A DNA stretch of 64,000 bases, taken from IMG/VR virus record IMGVR_UViG_2925891887_000001; one strand, given 5' to 3'. A program made the translations under genes and the position numbers. Origin of the DNA: a virus (Duplodnaviria; Heunggongvirae; Uroviricota; Caudoviricetes). This document shows, one piece after another, positions 1,838-8,819 of this stretch. How positions within the stretch are numbered: the first letter of the stretch is position 1; the number at the start of each line of letters is the position of its first letter. Under the pieces are notes generated by a model. It ran no database searches. It worked only from the letters and a program-made list of their open reading frames with translations, and was not told the origin of the DNA.

Positions 1838-2301
1838 AATACGATGCGCATCAGTTCAAACGTGCGGGGAATAGACTCAACAACAGCCAGAAAGCATTTA
1901 AGCGATATCTTATTCGGGACATGGAAAAGCTGGCGCGTTTGGTTGAGCGCCTCAGCCGTGCAATGGCCCCGCTGGAAACCGGATCTCTGGAGACAGCCAT
2001 CTTTGCCAGGGTGATTAAAGAAGGTTATTCAGGGCTGCGCATTGAGCTTTCTGTGTCTGGAGCAAAACCACGTCAGGGGCATCCGGGCGTAGAAGTCGGT
2101 GACTATGCTAAGTACATGGAGCTGGGTAAATACCGACTCGGTTATCTTTCTCGAATGAAGAACGTGACAAACCCACCAATTGCCGGTGTTAAACCCCGTG
2201 TTGGGCCACACTTTCTGGAAAGAGCGGTGGAAATTAGCGAGAAGCAGTTCTCAGAAGCGATTCTTGAGGCTGCCAGAAAAGCCGGATTTACGAGAGGTTA
2301 A
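1828..2301 (+). CDS. hypothetical head-tail connector/tail completion candidate
   Basis: 157-aa ORF tightly packed in the operon upstream of the major tail gene. Confidence 0.55.
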   Translation: MGLKYDAHQFKRAGNRLNNSQKAFKRYLIRDMEKLARLVERLSRAMAPLETGSLETAIFARVIKEGYSGLRIELSVSGAKPRQGHPGVEVGDYAKYMELGKYRLGYLSRMKNVTNPPIAGVKPRVGPHFLERAVEISEKQFSEAILEAARKAGFTRG

Positions 2302-2302
2302 T

Positions 2303-2686
2303 GTGTTTATTGAAGCGTTTGCAAGTTTGATGCAGAAGGCAAAGATTGGCACGGTCGGGACTGACATTTTCTGTCACTACTTGCCTGCCAATGTGAAATC
2401 TGGCGTCCTGCTTATTAACCCAAATACCGGTATCAGCATCGATCATGAGCTACAGGGCTTTTACCACGAATCATTCACAATAATTGTGCGTGGTTCGTCA
2501 ATTACTACGACGGTTGAGAAAGCCAATAAAATCATTGAGATGTTTCCAGTAGAGGAAACGGAATCTGGTGGTGTTTATTTTCGACTGGTACGACCGATGG
2601 CGATGCCAATCATTTATCCCAAAAATGATGGGGCATTAATAGAAGCAGGCATTCCTATTGAATTTGCTGGCTATTTATTGAATTAA
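2303..2686 (+). CDS. hypothetical tail completion/terminator candidate
   Basis: ORF immediately upstream of the major tail gene; start uncertain (GTG 2303 after GAGAGG, or ATG 2330). Confidence 0.45.
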   Translation: MFIEAFASLMQKAKIGTVGTDIFCHYLPANVKSGVLLINPNTGISIDHELQGFYHESFTIIVRGSSITTTVEKANKIIEMFPVEETESGGVYFRLVRPMAMPIIYPKNDGALIEAGIPIEFAGYLLN

Positions 2687-2760
2687 CTCAATTGGTAAGT
2701 ATATACTTACTATTAGCGCAATGAATGCGTAGAATTAACGGAAAAAGGAGTTTTCCATCA

Positions 2761-3507
2761 ATGTCTAATACCCATGTAAAAAACATCAAACTTGGTGCCT
2801 GTAAGGTGTCGTTTGGTGGTGTGGATTTGGGTTACACCAAAGGTGGTGTTCAGGTTGAAATCGCAACCGAAACGCTGAAAGTGACCGTAGACCAGCTGGG
2901 CCAGACCACGATCTCCGAGCTGATCCAGGGCCGCAACATCACCATTACTGCGCCGCTGGCTGAATCCGTGTTGAAAAACATGGTCGATCTGATGCCAGGT
3001 TCCACGCTGAGTTCTGGCGAAGATACCGTAACCATCACGTCTGCGCAGGGAGTGAACCTGATCGACGTTGCGAAAGAGTTGGTGCTGACCCCGCAGGATG
3101 CGACGGATTATGTTCTGACCATCCCTAAAGCAGCAACCGCGGGTAACTTCACCATGACCTACCAGTCTGACGACGTTCGCGTGTTCTCAGTTGAGTTTTC
3201 CGCTTACCCGGACGACGCTGGCGTGTTGGGGAAAATGAGCCTCCCAAAGCCGGTTGAGAGCGTCACGCTGACCCCGTCTTCACCGACCGTAAAAGTGGGC
3301 ACTAAAGTTCAATTGAGCGCAACCTTCACCCCGGCCGATGCAACCAATAAGACTGGCGTGTGGAGCTCTGATGCGACTGATAAAGCGACCGTAGATCAGA
3401 ACGGACTGGTAACTGGTAAAGCTGTCGGTTCAGCCAATATCACCTTCACAACTAATGACGGTGCCAAGAAGGCGACCAAAGCCGTCTCTGTAACTGCCGC
3501 AAGCTAA
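2761..3507 (+). CDS. major tail protein with C-terminal Ig-like (Big_2-type) domain
   Basis: ATG after AAAGGAG; lies directly upstream of the chaperone/tape-measure genes (lambda gpV position); Ig-like C-terminal segment. Confidence 0.7.
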   Translation: MSNTHVKNIKLGACKVSFGGVDLGYTKGGVQVEIATETLKVTVDQLGQTTISELIQGRNITITAPLAESVLKNMVDLMPGSTLSSGEDTVTITSAQGVNLIDVAKELVLTPQDATDYVLTIPKAATAGNFTMTYQSDDVRVFSVEFSAYPDDAGVLGKMSLPKPVESVTLTPSSPTVKVGTKVQLSATFTPADATNKTGVWSSDATDKATVDQNGLVTGKAVGSANITFTTNDGAKKATKAVSVTAAS

Positions 3508-3569
3508 ATTGTGATAACCCAAGAGGCCCATGGATGGGCCTCTGTATGAGTTTAAAAGGATTTTAACCA

Positions 3570-3887
3570 ATGACCAAATTACTCGATCTCGATTCCATTC
3601 TGCCTCCGAAGAAAAGCATCAAATTTGGCGGTCAGGAATATCCCATCGTTGAAATGACGGTAGGTCTGTTCGTTTCCATCAAGCAGATGGAAGGCAAAGA
3701 TCTCATGAACATGTCTCCTGTTGAGCAAGTGACAGCTTATGCAGATCTGGTTCGTAAGGTTATCCCTTCAGTACCTGACGAAGTTCTTGAAAAACTGACT
3801 GTTCCGCAACTCCAGCAGATCTTCACCTTCGCTATGGAAGTGATTGATGAAGAAAACGAAAAAGCGGCTGGCGAAGGGGCAAAGTAA
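3570..3887 (+). CDS. tail assembly chaperone (gpG-like)
   Basis: 105-aa acidic protein between major tail and tape measure genes; AAGGA RBS. Confidence 0.65.
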   Translation: MTKLLDLDSILPPKKSIKFGGQEYPIVEMTVGLFVSIKQMEGKDLMNMSPVEQVTAYADLVRKVIPSVPDEVLEKLTVPQLQQIFTFAMEVIDEENEKAAGEGAK

Positions 3888-4237
3888 TTTCCCGCGATGA
3901 ATCCGGGACAAGGACCGTCTCAATAGATCTCGGATTCTATTTCAGTCGTGTAGTTGCTCACTACGCCGTGTCGCCATTAGAGCTACTGAACGTTCCTCTC
4001 ACGATGTTCTGGATGCTCAGTCGCAATATAGACCGTCTGCGTGCGGAAGAGGATGTCCGCAACTTACAAGTCGCTCGTGCGTCCCAGGCGGATGGCGAGG
4101 CTGTGAAGGCGTTCATGGAGGGTTTGCAACTCAGGATTGGAAGACCAGTCGTAACAGATAAAGTCTACGATCCAAGCCAGGATAAGGCAGACCCTGACGC
4201 CAAAGAGCAACTGATGCAAATATTTGGCAGAGGATGA
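3570..4237 (+). CDS. tail assembly chaperone frameshift product (gpGT-like), candidate -1 programmed frameshift near 3858-3863
   Basis: The -1 frame is open from 3851 (after TGA 3848-3850) to 4237 and overlaps the last 34 nt of the gpG-like gene; the A-run GAAAAAG at 3858-3864 allows a -1 slip on AAA. Confidence 0.45.
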
Positions 4238-4244
4238 CAAGGGA

Positions 4245-7200
4245 ATGTCACAAAACGTAGAGTTTATCCTGTCGCTGGAAGACAAACAGTTTACAGCGTC
4301 AATCGATCGTGCGGGGAAACTGCTTACTCGATTTGGTGAGCAGGTAACAAAGCCTGCTCAAAAAATCCAAACCTTTGAACGCTCTTTGGGTTCGGTCGCC
4401 CGTATCATTGGCGTTCTGGAAAGCAAGCTCGATTCTACGGCAGATAAACTACAGGATGTAGCTGCCGGTTTTGAGCTTGCTTCAGATGCTACGCGTAAAA
4501 TGCGTGGCAACATCACCAGCCTCAATTCTGGTCTTAAAGCCCTGATTGAGCGCGTCGATACGACAACTTCTTCAGTAGATAAACTCACCGCGTCATTACG
4601 TAAAGTGCAATCAGAGCTAAATGATTTCTCTGATTGGGCGACCTATGCAAGCAAAAGCGCAAGCCGCTTTGGTACGGAGGTCAAAGAAGCCTCTGCGTCC
4701 GTGAGTGGCATGAATACGCGCCTTAATACCACGACGAAGCGACTCAGTAATTGGGGTGTCTCAACGAGTCAGGCTGCCGAGGGACTGAAAAAGGTTCGTG
4801 AGCAGATGGACGAAGTTATCGGACGTCAGCAACTGATTAGCAAGCCGGTACGCGTTCGTACATCTGGAGGTAGCGATGGTGGCAGCGGGCGGCGTAGCGG
4901 CTCTGGCCATAGCGGTAAAAGTAACGAAGGAGGTATGTTCTCTGGCCTTCGTGGCAACATTTTCCTGCTTGGCGAGATCGGAGATGCAGCCAGAACGGTT
5001 ACTGACATCATGTTTGGGTGGCAGAAGCCTATTGTTGAAGCTGCGGCCGAAATGGAACGTATGCGGGTGATGCTTCGAGGGTTGAATAAGGAGAAGTCCA
5101 ACCCGGGCCAGGCTGCCGCTGATGATATGAAGTACATCGTAGACATGGCTCAAAATGCGCCGTTCGCGATGCAGGCGTTAACAGACTCCTTCGTGAAGTT
5201 TCGTTCTGCTGGCTTAGATCCAACCGATGGTTCTCTGAAGGCGCTGGTGGACTCCGTTGCTCGTTTTGGTGGTGATAGTGAGCTGTTGAAACGTGCGGCT
5301 GTGGCCGTTCAGCAGATGTCCGGTAAGGGCGTTGTGTCAATGGAAGAGCTACGTCAGCAATTAGGTGAAGCCGTTCCTAACGCGATGCAGGCAATGGCAG
5401 ACGCCGCAGGCATCACTATGGGGGAACTGACTAAAGCCGTTGCCAGCGGTACGGTTGAGGCAAAACAGGCGTTGTCTCTGATGTTTGTTGGTCTGCGTGC
5501 GGAGAATGAGAACGCAGCGAAAGACATGATGCAAACCTACACAGGTGCGCTGGCGCAACTTCAGACGTCATTCACGTTATTTGCTGATCGGGTTGGTCAG
5601 GCCGGATATCTGGATTCTCTATCGAAGGGGATGAAAGAACTGGCTTCAATCATGAATAGCGCCGAAGGGATTTCGTTTGCCAATTCTTTAGGTTCGGGGT
5701 TAACAACGGCAATCGATGGGTTGCGTCAGCTTGCTCAATGGTTAGCAAAGAACCAAGAGCTGGTAATTAATCTCGGTAAGGTCGTGGCCGCGATGGTTGC
5801 GTTCAAACTGATGCGAGCAGGGATCATGGGGGTAGTTGGCGCTGGGAGCCAGATGGTTAGCACCTTTGCCACGATGGCGACCGCCATACAGACTCCATTT
5901 AACCTCGGCGCTACAGCAGTAACTCGATTCAATCGTGCGGCACGTATGGGGCTGGCTCCGATCCCCTCTCTTATTTTCGCCATCCGTGGGGCGATTACGG
6001 GGCTTAAAGGCGCTTTTGCTGGATTAACGGCGTTCATTGCAGCAAACCCTATAGGGGCAGCATTTACAGTTGCCACAGTAGCTGTTGCTGGCCTAATCAC
6101 GTACATGACCATGCTCCGCAGCGAAACTTCAAAGGTCGTTGACGAGATTAGGAAAATACCAGAGGCGATGACGGCGGCCAAACGTGCACAGATGGCGGAG
6201 TATAAAGCGCGTCTTGAGCAACAAATCACGCAAAAGGAACAAGAGTTAAAATCTGGCGAAAAGGTGGTTTATGGGCCGGGTATGGCCGGAACTACAGTAA
6301 AGATTAATCAGGATGAACGTAAGCGTATAGAAAATGAGCTAAATGACCTTCGTGAGAAACGCGATAAAACTACTGGGGCAATTGAACGCGGAGACACTGC
6401 TGTAGCCAAACGTCTTGCAAAAGATGCGGCAGAATCACAGATAGAGAAAATACGGGAAGAGAATAGAGACTTTGCGGCAACATTCGCTAAAGCTCGTCAA
6501 GAGGCTCTGGATAAGATCCAGAAAATCAATGATGACGGTTCACTTTCAGATGACGAAAAGAACAAGCTATTGGCACCGTTACGTGAAACGGTAAACAAAA
6601 GCTATCTGGAGCCTGCGCAAAAACTGGTTGATTCACTTTCTTCTCGTAAGAATGCGACCGAGAAGCAAATTGCGACTCTTAATGATCAGCTTGAAAAAGC
6701 CAAAAAGGATGGAAATACCGAGCAGATCCAGAAACTGCAAGGCAGTATTCGTGGTTATCAGGAGCATTTGGAAGCCGTTGCTCAGGAGCTGACTCAGGCA
6801 GAGTTCGAGAGAGATAACGCGGCCAAAACTGGTAAGGGCGTAATGTCAAACCAGGGGACTGTTCTTGGGTTAGGTACAACTGATAAAGCTGCTCAGAAGG
6901 CGCTGGCGCAATATATGCGAAACCAGATGGATTCTGCGACTTATCAGCGTACTTTGCCTGACGGCACTCCGATGATGGACTTCGAAGGTAAGCCGATTAT
7001 TGGGCCTAAACAACTCAAGACGCAGCTTAATTTGCAGAAAGCATCCAGCGCCAGCTCTCTGGAGAAAATGAGCGATGAAGAGCGTGCCGCAGCCATTGCT
7101 GCACTGACTAAAGCTCGTGAACAGGATGCCGCAGCCGCCGAGAAAGCAGCCCAACGATCAGCTAACGCCTCGCAGCGTGCGGCCAAGAAGGAACAGGCAG

Positions 7201-8819
7201 CGCAACAGAAACTGGCAGCCGGATACCAGAAGGCTCTGGACAAAGCCGATCAGCTTATGGGGCAAATGGGTGAAAGCTCTAAGGCTACGGTATCGTTTGA
7301 TCAGTCTCTTCGCGATACAACGAAATCGCTGACAGATTTGGCTAATGCGGTTCCTAACGAGTTCATCACTCAAGAGATGATCGACAAGGCGAAAAAACGT
7401 CTTGAAGACCTCAAAAATGCGACACCTGAATATCGCGAGATGTTTAATCGCCGCAATGTTGAGCAGATGATCTCCACCTGGGCACCGGAGGCGGATTCCA
7501 TTATTAGTGCTGGCTATACGCCGTCTCGCGAAGAGAAAGTTGCTGATTTCGAAGACACCTACAACCGCAATCTCAAAGCGTTGATAGAACTTCGTGATAA
7601 GGCGTCTGATCCTAAAGTTGTGGCGCTTTATACAAAGAAAATCAATCAACTGATTGCTGCTGGCAATACCGCGCTTATTAAAGAGACGGGGACTGCGACG
7701 CAGAAGTTGGCACTGGAATACGAAAACCTGGCAGAGCAGATCGAAAGCACCTGGACTGATTTGTTTAGTGGCTTAACTGATGTCCTGACTGATTTCGTTA
7801 TTAACGGGAAGATGAGCTTCTCCAGCCTATCTCAGTCCATTTTGAAAGATATCACCAATATGGTCGTGAAGTCGCAAATCACGCTGCCTCTAATGAACAT
7901 GTTGGGGATGGGAACCACCGCAGCTGGTAGTTCACAGAGTGGCAATTTGCTCACTGGAGTTGCTTCTGCCGTTGCCAATCAAGGTGTACGAATGGGCAAC
8001 ACTGTTAATGGCGACAAGTCGGTAGGAGAAGCCACGAAGGAGACGTCCAGTTCGGTAACTGGATTGGGGCAAACAACACAGCAGACCACCAGCGCAATTG
8101 GCACAGCAACAAATGCGATTGGTAGCTGGGTATCGGGGCTATTTGATAGCACCGAAGCCAAAGATGCTGAGACAAAAGCAGTGAAGGACTCCATCTTCTC
8201 GATGCAGAACCTCAGCTCTGTTACCGGCGCTCTGTCTGCCGCGTTTGCAATGCTTGGAGCTAATGCTTCCGGCTCTGGTAATAAGTGGTTGAATTTCGGC
8301 GCGACAGTTGCATCTGGTTTGGTTTCAGTATGGGCTGGTGGTGGATTCGATGGATTGATGTCCGGTTCTTCTGGCTCAACTTCCGGGTTCAACAATCTGA
8401 CCAGTTCTGCTGCCGATGGCACGAATGGTATTCCTGCAATTCCGAAGTTTGCAAATGGTGGCATATTCGGAAAAGACGGCGTGATCCCGCTCCGGGCATA
8501 CCAGAAAGGCGGTATCGCCAACTCACCTCAATTGGCGTTGTTTGGGGAAGGCGATATGAATGAGGCGTATGTTCCATTGCCTGATGGCCGAACAATCCCT
8601 GTAACGCTCAGTACCGATGGTATGAGTGGAGGCGGAAATGTTCTTTCTCCTGTATCAATTGAGATCAACGTCCATAGTGACGGTAGCACGACAGAATCCG
8701 GCGATACAGAAAGCATATGGAACAATGCCGCTCAACGGATGAAAGCAATCGCGCTTGAGACTATCGCTCAAGAGAAACGCCCTGGCGGATCACTCAACCC
8801 AAACACTCAACGTAACTAA
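4245..8819 (+). CDS. tail tape measure protein
   Basis: about 1.5k-aa ORF directly after the chaperone pair; long helical segments, Gly/hydrophobic central region; start uncertain (TTG 4224 or ATG 4245). Confidence 0.85.
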   Translation: MSQNVEFILSLEDKQFTASIDRAGKLLTRFGEQVTKPAQKIQTFERSLGSVARIIGVLESKLDSTADKLQDVAAGFELASDATRKMRGNITSLNSGLKALIERVDTTTSSVDKLTASLRKVQSELNDFSDWATYASKSASRFGTEVKEASASVSGMNTRLNTTTKRLSNWGVSTSQAAEGLKKVREQMDEVIGRQQLISKPVRVRTSGGSDGGSGRRSGSGHSGKSNEGGMFSGLRGNIFLLGEIGDAARTVTDIMFGWQKPIVEAAAEMERMRVMLRGLNKEKSNPGQAAADDMKYIVDMAQNAPFAMQALTDSFVKFRSAGLDPTDGSLKALVDSVARFGGDSELLKRAAVAVQQMSGKGVVSMEELRQQLGEAVPNAMQAMADAAGITMGELTKAVASGTVEAKQALSLMFVGLRAENENAAKDMMQTYTGALAQLQTSFTLFADRVGQAGYLDSLSKGMKELASIMNSAEGISFANSLGSGLTTAIDGLRQLAQWLAKNQELVINLGKVVAAMVAFKLMRAGIMGVVGAGSQMVSTFATMATAIQTPFNLGATAVTRFNRAARMGLAPIPSLIFAIRGAITGLKGAFAGLTAFIAANPIGAAFTVATVAVAGLITYMTMLRSETSKVVDEIRKIPEAMTAAKRAQMAEYKARLEQQITQKEQELKSGEKVVYGPGMAGTTVKINQDERKRIENELNDLREKRDKTTGAIERGDTAVAKRLAKDAAESQIEKIREENRDFAATFAKARQEALDKIQKINDDGSLSDDEKNKLLAPLRETVNKSYLEPAQKLVDSLSSRKNATEKQIATLNDQLEKAKKDGNTEQIQKLQGSIRGYQEHLEAVAQELTQAEFERDNAAKTGKGVMSNQGTVLGLGTTDKAAQKALAQYMRNQMDSATYQRTLPDGTPMMDFEGKPIIGPKQLKTQLNLQKASSASSLEKMSDEERAAAIAALTKAREQDAAAAEKAAQRSANASQRAAKKEQAAQQKLAAGYQKALDKADQLMGQMGESSKATVSFDQSLRDTTKSLTDLANAVPNEFITQEMIDKAKKRLEDLKNATPEYREMFNRRNVEQMISTWAPEADSIISAGYTPSREEKVADFEDTYNRNLKALIELRDKASDPKVVALYTKKINQLIAAGNTALIKETGTATQKLALEYENLAEQIESTWTDLFSGLTDVLTDFVINGKMSFSSLSQSILKDITNMVVKSQITLPLMNMLGMGTTAAGSSQSGNLLTGVASAVANQGVRMGNTVNGDKSVGEATKETSSSVTGLGQTTQQTTSAIGTATNAIGSWVSGLFDSTEAKDAETKAVKDSIFSMQNLSSVTGALSAAFAMLGANASGSGNKWLNFGATVASGLVSVWAGGGFDGLMSGSSGSTSGFNNLTSSAADGTNGIPAIPKFANGGIFGKDGVIPLRAYQKGGIANSPQLALFGEGDMNEAYVPLPDGRTIPVTLSTDGMSGGGNVLSPVSIEINVHSDGSTTESGDTESIWNNAAQRMKAIALETIAQEKRPGGSLNPNTQRN

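What the first reader, a model, noticed from the sequence alone, without database searches (positions are those of the whole stretch)
3848..3887. Candidate -1 programmed frameshift joining the gpG-like and gpT-like chaperone frames
The ORF downstream of the 105-aa chaperone gene is open in the -1 frame from 3851, overlapping the last 34 nt of the gpG-like gene, and has no convincing own start. The overlap contains GAAAAAG (3858-3864), where tRNA-Lys can re-pair one base back. This is the conserved G/GT mechanism of long-tailed phages, but the slippery site is not the canonical XXXYYYZ heptamer.
Basis: partly seen in the sequence, partly recalled or inferred. Interest (0 to 1): 0.5.

Follow-up and report, generated by a model that had tools for sequence, protein, structure and literature searches.

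The report
Tail chaperone frameshift, slip site relocated
This SSU5-like phage-plasmid almost certainly makes its tail assembly chaperone pair by the ordinary lambda-style -1 frameshift, but comparison with relatives puts the slip on A_AAG at the last codon before the stop (3881-3884), not on GAAAAAG.

Summary
A 105-aa ORF (3570-3887) lies between the major tail gene and the tape measure gene. The -1 frame is open from 3851 to 4237, has no start codon before GTG 3968, and the overlap contains GAAAAAG.

The general interpretation, a G/GT-type -1 programmed frameshift, is well supported. The proposed slip site is not.
- In SSU5 and 30 of 80 close relatives, a synonymous GGC>GGT change puts a TGA in the -1 frame between GAAAAAG and the G stop.
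- In more distant relatives GAAAAAG is absent.
- Every relative keeps G(C/T)A_AAG followed directly by TAA or TAG.
- The A at the third position of codon 104 is the only invariant one of 22 four-fold degenerate sites in the gene. Lys105 is AAG in 59 of 59 distinct genes.
- Remote relatives carry canonical G_GGA_AAG or G_GGA_AAC at or near this position.
- A stem-loop starts 8 nt downstream (3893-3950). It recurs in all lineages, but its statistical support is modest.

The predicted product is a 222-aa GT fusion with the junction ...AAGEGAK|VISRDESG.... No experimental data exist. This is a new, so far unannotated member of a known mechanism that uses a minimal slip motif. In passing, the major tail gene carries C_CCA_AAG at its Ig-domain boundary (3243-3249).

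The parts
2725..3507 (+). Major tail (tube) protein gene with a C-terminal Big_2 Ig-like domain. It is the upstream neighbour that defines the synteny.
   Evidence: Pfam Big_2, E 4.9e-23. PHROG hits to major tail proteins and Ig-domain proteins. SSU5 annotation.
3570..3887 (+). G-like tail assembly chaperone ORF: 105 aa, ATG 3570, stop TAA 3885-3887.
3879..3884 (+). GCA_AAG, the proposed slip site. tRNA-Lys re-pairs from AAG 3882-3884 to AAA 3881-3883 (A_AAG tetramer 3881-3884). Base 3884 is read twice.
   Evidence: G(C/T)A AAG is present in every relative examined. The third base of codon 104 is the only invariant one of 22 four-fold sites, and Lys105 is AAG in 59 of 59 genes. In L103 the -1 frame is open for only 7 nt before the stop.
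3885..3887 (+). Zero-frame stop TAA, immediately 3' of the slip codon. It is a possible part of the signal (a 'shifty stop').
   Evidence: TAA or TAG directly follows AAG in all SSU5-like sequences and in remote relative L104. A functional role is inferred, not shown.
3884..4237 (+). T segment in the -1 frame: 117 codons (VISRDESG...IFGRG) plus stop TGA 4235-4237. It is translated only as the C-terminal part of a 222-aa GT fusion.
   Evidence: Translation. phrog_1131. In the stretch before the first start codon, variable sites by codon position are 12/3/23, and all indels are multiples of 3. The first start codon in this frame wanders from +26 to +131 among relatives.
3893..3950 (+). Candidate stimulatory stem-loop starting 8 nt after AAG. 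The lower stem is 3893-3898 with 3945-3950. The upper stem is 3899-3906 with 3930-3937.
   Evidence: MFE -17.9 kcal/mol, z -1.0. Upper stem: 99% of cells paired, one compensatory change, 32 of 500 shuffles as good. Lower stem intact (6 of 6 pairs) in 20 of 26 distinct sequences and 5 of 6 in two more. Stem-loops with different sequences lie 5-8 nt after the slip sites of remote relatives.
3858..3864 (+). It is not conserved and is at most a minor extra site in this clade.
   Evidence: Absent in L088-L097 and L099-L103. Cut off from T by a -1-frame TGA in 30 of 80 close relatives.
3872..3874 (+). CGA in the -1 frame here. It is TGA in SSU5 and many relatives (GGC>GGT, synonymous in G), which closes the -1 frame upstream of the true slip site.
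4245..8819 (+). Tape measure protein gene, the downstream neighbour that defines the synteny.
   Evidence: Pfam TMP_3 (E 4.3e-27) and Tape_meas_lam_C (E 6.1e-13).

Best explanation
Genes 3570-3887 and 3884-4237 form a lambda G/GT-type tail assembly chaperone cassette of an SSU5-like phage-plasmid.

Most ribosomes terminate at TAA 3885 and make the 105-aa G protein. A small fraction, probably a few percent, slip back one base on the hexanucleotide GCA_AAG: tRNA-Lys leaves AAG 3882-3884 and re-pairs on AAA 3881-3883. These ribosomes then read GTA ATT TCC... and finish a 222-aa GT fusion with the junction ...AAGEGAK|VISRDESG....

Two features probably help the slip. One is a stem-loop that begins 8 nt downstream (3893-3950). 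The other may be slow decoding of the stop codon that abuts the slip codon.

By analogy with lambda, the G parts coat the tape measure protein and the T part recruits the major tail protein.

Shown here: the frame layout, family-wide conservation of the motif and of the T reading frame, and selection at the nucleotide level. Inferred: the slip itself, its rate, the roles of the stem-loop and the stop, and the protein functions.
For: 1. Synteny. The order is major tail (Big_2), then G, then T, then tape measure.

2. The T frame is translated from the G stop onward. The sequence V-I-S/T-R-D/E-E-S-G...SID(L/F)GFYFSRV is conserved. Variable sites by codon position are 12/3/23 before the window's first start codon. 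Indels are multiples of 3.

3. There is no conserved start. The first ATG/GTG/TTG lies between +26 and +131 in different lineages. Gene callers give T lengths of 74 to 131 aa.

4. The -1 frame is open for only 10 nt before the G stop in 30 of 80 close relatives and in most distant ones, and for only 7 nt in L103. This confines the shift to GCA AAG.

5. G(C/T)A_AAG + TA(A/G) is invariant in all lineages, down to about 48% G identity.

6. Among 59 distinct G genes, only codon 104 has an invariant third base out of 22 four-fold degenerate columns. Lys105 is always AAG, whereas the other Lys columns shared across the set, apart from Lys98 (AAA in 53 of 53), mix AAA and AAG.

7. Remote phrog_893 relatives with a homologous T segment carry G_GGA_AAG + TAG at the same position (L104), or G_GGA_AAC 15 nt upstream of the stop (Rhizobium phages, L106 and L107).

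8. Stem-loops lie 5-8 nt after the slip site in most of the 14 lineages folded, clearest in the remote relatives, where the arm sequences differ.

9. A_AAG is the most slip-prone tetramer in E. coli, reaching 5.6% with a strong stimulator. NNA_AAG sites are used by IS1222 and occur in B. subtilis cdd (PMC4066793 and PMC5009743).

10. In relatives, the neighbouring major tail gene uses C_CCA_AAG + stop to reach its Ig domain in the -1 frame. This is the same design.
Against: - There are no protein or reporter data for any member of the family. No paper on it was found.
- A_AAG without a stimulator is barely above background in E. coli reporters, about 0.15%.
- The stem-loop in the window itself is not better than shuffles (z -1.0; 24 of 200 fold as well). 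It has one compensatory pair and 32 of 500 shuffles match it. Its arms lie in constrained coding sequence.
- From my own knowledge, UAA-U and UAG-U are efficient termination contexts, which weakens the 'slow stop' idea.
- G has no Pfam chaperone hit and only weak fold similarity to chaperones. The T model matches nothing informative.
- The G of AAG is also the first base of the Val codon in the T frame, so part of the AAG invariance could reflect coding in T.
Confidence: 0.8

Rival explanations
1. One reading: the -1 slip takes place on GAAAAAG (A_AAA, 3860-3863). The fusion would be ...DEENEK|SGWRRGKVISR....
For: In this window the -1 frame is open from 3851, and tRNA-Lys can re-pair perfectly from AAA to AAA. 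Lys98 is AAA in all 53 genes that have Lys at that position. A low level of slippage here cannot be excluded in the clade that has GGC at 3870-3872.
Against: - A -1-frame TGA separates it from T in SSU5 and 30 of 80 close relatives.
- The motif is absent in L088-L097 and L099-L103, which keep the T frame.
- A_AAA is the weakest of the six active tetramers in E. coli; measured rates for the six run from 0.26% to 5.6% for A_AAG.
- The sequence just downstream folds no better than chance (z +1.29), and the conserved stem-loop lies 29 nt away.
Confidence: 0.07
2. T is made as a separate protein. It would start at GTG 3968 or at a non-canonical codon near the G stop, or arise by termination-reinitiation after the G stop.
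For: Public records annotate T as a separate hypothetical protein. Some lineages have an ATG or GTG 26-29 nt after the G stop. An AAGGGG stretch lies upstream of ATT 3887 in the window.
Against: - The first start codon moves from +26 to +131 between lineages, while the 28 codons upstream of the window's GTG are more conserved than the rest of T and vary mainly at third positions.
- The codon after GTA is ATT, ATA, ATC, GTT, GTA or GAA in different relatives, so no start is conserved there.
- Independent initiation does not explain the invariant synonymous A at 3881.
- Remote relatives have canonical slippery heptamers at or near this position.
Confidence: 0.06
3. The frame change is made in the RNA, by polymerase slippage on an A run, or the arrangement is a decayed gene with no function.
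For: There are short A runs: five A at 3859-3863 and three A at 3881-3883.
Against: From my own knowledge, these runs are far shorter than those known to cause transcriptional slippage. The arrangement, the T protein sequence and the motif are conserved across lineages whose G proteins share only about 50% identity. That excludes a decayed gene.
Confidence: 0.02

Closest known systems
Phage lambda G/GT tail assembly chaperone frameshift (Levin, Hendrix and Casjens 1993; Xu, Hendrix and Duda 2004, 2013, 2014; summarised in PMC5009743)
   Same: Two overlapping ORFs lie between the major tail gene and the tape measure gene. The second ORF is in the -1 frame and has no start of its own. The slip is near the 3' end of G and involves tRNA-Lys on AAG. 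The expected outcome is a low fusion-to-G ratio. Remote relatives of this family carry lambda's own heptamer G_GGA_AAG.
   Different: In the SSU5 clade only the 3' half of the heptamer survives (GCA_AAG or GTA_AAG), so the P-site tRNA cannot re-pair. The slip codon is the very last sense codon, directly before the stop. The G and T proteins have no detectable sequence similarity to Pfam chaperone families.
Tetramer or hexanucleotide -1 frameshift sites Z_ZZN / NNA_AAG: IS3, IS1222 (G_CGA_AAG), B. subtilis cdd (A_CGA_AAG) (PMC4066793, PMC5009743)
   Same: A single tRNA-Lys slips from AAG to AAA. The preceding codon ends in A. From my own knowledge, GCA and GUA are read by tRNAs with broad wobble, and the review links broad wobble in the preceding codon's tRNA to higher slippage. 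A downstream structure lies within the usual 5-9 nt spacing.
   Different: The context is a phage tail chaperone gene rather than an insertion-sequence transposase. The stop codon directly abuts the slip codon. The stimulator is a bipartite stem-loop of modest stability, not a demonstrated pseudoknot.
'Shifty stop' frameshifting: a P-site tRNA slips while a stop codon waits in the A site, as in prfB CUU_UGA (+1) (Weiss et al. 1987; PMC5009743)
   Same: A slip-prone codon is followed directly by a stop codon, so termination and frameshifting would compete.
   Different: The direction is -1, not +1. No Shine-Dalgarno-like element sits at a helpful distance. A role for the stop codon was not tested here.

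Membership tests
G/GT-type tail assembly chaperone frameshift cassette | Two overlapping ORFs located between the major tail protein gene and the tape measure protein gene | tested here: met
   Gene order is 2725-3507 (Big_2 major tail), 3570-3887, 3884-4237, 4245-8819 (TMP_3 and Tape_meas_lam_C). SSU5 has the same order.
G/GT-type tail assembly chaperone frameshift cassette | The downstream ORF is in another frame, lacks its own initiation signal, and is conserved as protein right across the junction | tested here: met
   It is in the -1 frame. The first start codon moves from +26 to +131 among lineages. The stretch before it has 12/3/23 variable sites by codon position, and all indels are multiples of 3.
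G/GT-type tail assembly chaperone frameshift cassette | A slippery sequence inside the overlap that is conserved among relatives | tested here: met
   A_AAG is invariant in all lineages. The synonymous A of codon 104 is the only invariant one of 22 four-fold sites. Remote relatives have G_GGA_AAG or G_GGA_AAC.
G/GT-type tail assembly chaperone frameshift cassette | A canonical X_XXY_YYZ heptamer | tested here: not met
   The site reads G_GCA_AAG in the window, and A_GCA_AAG or C_GTA_AAG in relatives. The P-site codon cannot re-pair. Published non-heptamer sites exist, so this feature is typical rather than obligatory.
G/GT-type tail assembly chaperone frameshift cassette | The G protein is related to known tail assembly chaperones | tested here: inconclusive
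G/GT-type tail assembly chaperone frameshift cassette | G and GT are both produced in a fixed low ratio, both are needed for tail assembly, and both are absent from virions | not testable with these tools
   This needs protein analysis and genetics. No published data were found.
NNA_AAG / Z_ZZN minimal -1 frameshift signals | An in-frame A_AAG preceded by an NNA codon whose tRNA has broad wobble | tested here: met
   The sequence is GCA_AAG or GTA_AAG in every relative. That the tRNAs for GCA and GUA are broad-wobble is my own knowledge. The link between wobble and slippage is from PMC5009743.
NNA_AAG / Z_ZZN minimal -1 frameshift signals | A stimulatory RNA structure 5-9 nt downstream | tested here: inconclusive
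   A stem-loop at 3893-3950 starts 8 nt after AAG. A downstream stem-loop including the upper stem is predicted in most of the 14 lineages folded. There is one compensatory pair, 32 of 500 shuffles match it, and the window's z is -1.0.
NNA_AAG / Z_ZZN minimal -1 frameshift signals | Measured -1 frameshifting that depends on the motif | not testable with these tools
   This needs a reporter assay or mass spectrometry.

The most novel reading that the evidence does not exclude
The SSU5 family may use a stripped-down recoding module twice in neighbouring tail genes. The module is an NNA_AAG slip codon placed directly against the stop codon, with a stem-loop 5-8 nt downstream.

At the end of G it is GCA_AAG-TAA. 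In several lineages it is also found at the end of the tube domain of the major tail gene, as C_CCA_AAG-stop.

If the stop codon is a working part of the signal, competition between release factor and the -1 slip would set both the G:GT ratio and the ratio of plain to Ig-decorated tail tube subunits. Both ratios could then respond to the host's termination capacity.
Probability: 0.25. Interest if true: 0.5.

Novelty: new member of a known kind. Interest (0 to 1): 0.33.

Why it matters
SSU5-like phage-plasmids are common in Salmonella, E. coli, Klebsiella, Cronobacter and Yersinia, and they are followed in work on the spread of resistance genes. In all 12 GenBank phage records found here, and in hundreds of database proteins, the two chaperone ORFs are listed as unrelated hypothetical proteins with arbitrary start codons.

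Recognising the frameshift gives these genes a function, a correct 222-aa product and a defined junction.

The case also shows a method. The right site was found by comparing relatives: a stop codon in the alternative frame, and one invariant synonymous base. The most obvious A run in a single sequence was misleading.

Mechanistically it is a natural example of a minimal A_AAG site derived from a canonical G_GGA_AAG heptamer. That makes it a convenient system for measuring how much a stop codon and a modest stem-loop can compensate for the loss of P-site re-pairing.

Tried and rejected
- **Small hairpin 3890-3908** (-8 kcal/mol, 5 nt after AAG) as the stimulator. It shows no covariation. Its outer pairs are eroded by synonymous changes in L089, L092-L095 and L099. 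It overlaps the better conserved upper stem. An H-type pseudoknot combining the two is geometrically possible but was not tested.
- **Shine-Dalgarno-like stimulator** (GGTGA or GAAGGGG upstream of the slip site). It lies only about 6 nt from A_AAG, which from my own knowledge is too close for -1 stimulation, and it varies among relatives.
- **+1 frame.** It closes 13 nt after the G stop in the window's clade.
- **Rfam.** No known RNA family matches in 3500-4300.
- **Sequence-based assignment of G and T.** Pfam gives nothing for either protein. The PDB sequence profile gives nothing for G. A scan of 59 remote homologues gave only two marginal Phage_TAC_7 hits. The T fold model (pLDDT 66) has no informative match.
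- **Literature.** No paper on an SSU5 tail frameshift was found. Licznar et al. 2003 could not be opened, so the NNA_AAG rule is cited through the 2016 review.
- **Searches for remote loci.** Scans of viral contigs with the wide alignment and with single remote proteins mostly failed. Four remote loci were obtained by other routes.

Full report
**Observation**

- A 105-aa ORF runs from ATG 3570 to TAA 3885-3887.
- The -1 frame has TGA at 3848-3850 and is then open from 3851 to TGA 4235-4237.
- The first ATG/GTG/TTG in that frame is GTG 3968.
- GAAAAAG lies at 3858-3864, read as GAA AAA GCG in the zero frame.

The overlap holds three in-frame Z_ZZN tetramers: A_AAC at 3854, A_AAA at 3860 and A_AAG at 3881. 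From the window's long ORFs, 0.16 A_AAR tetramers would be expected in 11 codons. This is a Glu/Lys-rich tail, so the mere presence of a motif says little.

**Context**

The window is an SSU5-like phage-plasmid. It is 93% identical over this region to Klebsiella phage ST13-OXA48phi12.3 and 84% identical to Salmonella phage SSU5.

The gene order is the classical siphovirus one:
- major tail protein with a C-terminal Big_2 domain (2725-3507);
- the 105-aa ORF;
- the -1 frame ORF;
- a 1524-aa tape measure protein starting at 4245 (Pfam TMP_3 and Tape_meas_lam_C).

The two small ORFs belong to phrog_893 and phrog_1131, both of unknown function. They have no Pfam match. All annotated GenBank relatives list them as two separate hypothetical proteins. 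Database versions of the second ORF have called lengths of 74, 77, 83, 86, 89, 108, 109, 116 and 131 aa. Such disagreement is expected for an ORF that has no real start.

**Where the shift can happen**

I collected 80 close relatives from IMG/VR, 7 genome loci and 15 loci for more divergent homologues.

In SSU5 and 30 of the 80 sequences in the close set, codon Gly101 is GGT rather than GGC. That creates TGA in the -1 frame at the position of window 3872-3874, between GAAAAAG and the G stop. The -1 frame is then open for only 10 nt before the stop.

The same holds in most distant lineages. In L103 the open stretch is only 7 nt.

In relatives whose G protein is 50-70% identical (Photorhabdus, Raoultella, a Klebsiella lineage and several metagenomes), GAAAAAG is gone and the sequence reads GAA GCC GCN. 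The T frame is nevertheless kept.

A slip at GAAAAAG therefore cannot be the family's mechanism. The only stretch open in all of them is the equivalent of 3878-3884, which reads GCA AAG or GTA AAG and is always followed directly by TAA or TAG.

**Selection at the nucleotide level**

Among 59 distinct 318-nt G genes, 22 codon columns carry a four-fold degenerate codon in every sequence. In 21 of them the third base varies. The single invariant one is codon 104 (GCA or GTA), whose third base is the first A of A_AAG.

That base is synonymous in G. It lies upstream of the point where the T frame starts to be read. Coding therefore does not explain its constancy, but a slip-site requirement does.

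Lys105 is AAG in 59 of 59 genes. The other Lys columns that are shared across the set mix AAA and AAG, except Lys98, which is AAA in all 53 genes that have Lys there.

**Remote relatives**

A profile search found 436 distant homologues of G. All 59 that I sampled fall in phrog_893, and many end in Lys.

Four remote loci, 25-40% identical in G, have a recognisably homologous T segment with the IDFGFxFxR motif:
- L104 has G_GGA_AAG, lambda's own heptamer, followed directly by TAG. This is the same position as in the SSU5 clade.
- Rhizobium phages RHph_N1_10 and RHEph10 (L106, L107) have G_GGA_AAC 15 nt before the stop.
- L105 has CAG GGG AAG TAA, with the -1 frame open for only 10 nt.

The SSU5 clade thus carries the 3' half of a canonical heptamer whose P-site half has been lost (GGA has become GCA or GTA).

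**The T frame is translated from the junction**

The amino-acid sequence V-I-S/T-R-D/E-E-S-G-x-x-T-V/I-S-I-D-L/F-G-F-Y-F-S-R-V is conserved in all lineages.

In the 30 alignment columns between the G stop and the window's GTG, variable sites by codon position are 12, 3 and 23. In the rest of T they are 40, 25 and 74. All indels are whole codons.

The first start codon in this frame lies at +26, +29, +83, +101, +104, +113, +116, +119, +128 or +131, depending on the lineage. The codon after GTA is ATT, ATA, ATC, GTT, GTA or GAA. Neither a canonical nor a non-canonical start is conserved.

**Downstream RNA**

A small hairpin at 3890-3908 (-8 kcal/mol) is present in close relatives. It shows no covariation and decays in distant ones.

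A larger stem-loop is better conserved.
- Upper stem, GAAUCCGG 3899-3906 with UCGGAUUC 3930-3937: paired in 198 of 200 cells across 25 distinct sequences. There is one compensatory change (U-A to G-C in Photorhabdus, through a synonymous Gly codon change) and four pairs with wobble-compatible single changes. However, 32 of 500 shuffles do as well.
- Lower stem, 3893-3898 with 3945-3950: fully paired in 20 of 26 distinct sequences, 5 of 6 pairs in two more, and 3 of 6 in the four sequences of the L090-L095 lineage. In that lineage the upper stem is instead extended to 14 bp.

The structure starts 8 nt after AAG.

In the window it is -17.9 kcal/mol with z -1.0, which is not significant on its own. 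Other lineages reach z -2 to -3.4.

The remote relatives have stem-loops of different sequence 5-8 nt after their own slip sites, with z -4.7, -1.5, -2.3 and -2.8.

I take this as moderate evidence for a stimulatory stem-loop. It also gives independent support for the position of the slip site, because nothing comparable follows GAAAAAG (z +1.29).

No Rfam family matches.

**Mechanism and rivals**

The best explanation is a -1 slip of tRNA-Lys from AAG 3882-3884 to AAA 3881-3883. Reading then continues with GTA, and the product is a 222-aa fusion...AAGEGAK|VISRDESGTR....

Published E. coli data make this plausible. A_AAG is the most slip-prone tetramer, at 5.6% with a strong pseudoknot but only about 0.15% alone (PMC4066793). 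NNA_AAG sites are used by IS1222 and occur in B. subtilis cdd. They work better when the NNA codon is read by a tRNA with broad wobble (PMC5009743). From my own knowledge, GCA and GUA are such codons.

The constant position of the stop codon suggests that it contributes, but this is inference.

Rivals:
- GAAAAAG as the main site is excluded for the family. It remains possible only as a minor extra event in this clade.
- Independent initiation or reinitiation does not explain the conserved segment upstream of any start, the invariant synonymous A, or the canonical heptamers in remote relatives.
- Transcriptional slippage is unlikely because the A runs are too short.
- Gene decay is excluded by the conservation.

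**Protein identity**

The T model (pLDDT 66) matches nothing informative.

Membership in the chaperone families therefore rests mainly on synteny and on the recoding architecture, not on sequence similarity.

**Comparison and novelty**

This works like lambda G/GT and is best filed as a new, unannotated member of that kind. Its slip signal is a minimal hexanucleotide rather than a heptamer, a motif type already known from insertion sequences. I found no paper that describes it for SSU5-like elements.

It is not surprising to a specialist. Its value lies in correct annotation of a widespread family of phage-plasmids and as a natural example of heptamer decay.

**Seen in passing**

The major tail gene carries C_CCA_AAG in frame at 3243-3249, at the boundary between the tube domain and the Big_2 domain.

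In lineages L090-L095, L097, L099-L101 and L103, the same heptamer is followed directly by a stop, and the Ig domain lies in the -1 frame (K|VxVTGVTVxP...). There the Ig domain would be added by a -1 frameshift that uses the same 'A_AAG plus stop' design.

In the window the zero frame runs on into the Ig domain, and the -1 frame stops after two codons (TGA 3255-3257). A slip there would give a tube protein without the Ig domain.

Noticed in passing
window 3243-3257 (major tail gene 2725-3507); L090, L092, L094, L095, L097, L099-L101, L103: C_CCA_AAG, the most slip-prone heptamer in E. coli, lies in frame at the boundary between the tube domain and the Big_2 Ig domain. In the window the zero frame continues into the Ig domain, and the -1 frame stops after two codons (TGA 3255-3257), so a slip would give an Ig-less protein of about 177 aa. 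In several related lineages the same heptamer is followed directly by a stop and the Ig domain lies in the -1 frame. There the domain would be added by a -1 frameshift. About 29 close relatives have lost the heptamer.
   Followed up: partly
window 3884-4237 and public records (SSU5_013/014, PhiR41_1, Cyrano and others): All annotated GenBank relatives list the chaperone pair as two unrelated hypothetical proteins. Database versions of the T ORF have at least nine different called lengths, from 74 to 131 aa. This reflects the lack of a true start codon.
   Followed up: yes
window 3890-3908 versus 3899-3937: The small hairpin (UCCCG...CGGGA) and the conserved upper stem share bases 3899-3908, so they are mutually exclusive as drawn. 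They could combine into an H-type pseudoknot: stem 1 would be 3890-3894 with 3904-3908, and stem 2 would be 3899-3903 with 3933-3937. It would start 5 nt after A_AAG, as in IS3. This was not tested, because the folding tools do not handle pseudoknots.
   Followed up: partly
window 2180-2686 and 4224-4245: Two mechanical ORF calls start too early. For ORF 2180-2686 (TTG start), the PHROG profile begins at residue 42 and the SSU5 homologue is 127 aa, so the real start is probably near 2303, just after the stop of the preceding gene. The tape measure gene most likely starts at ATG 4245, which is preceded by AAGGGA, and not at TTG 4224.
   Followed up: no
L105 (metagenome relative), G stop region: One remote relative ends in CAG GGG AAG TAA, with the -1 frame open for only 10 nt. 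The only re-pairing available there is tRNA-Gly on G_GGG, one codon before the last. This would be another non-heptamer variant of the same cassette.
   Followed up: no
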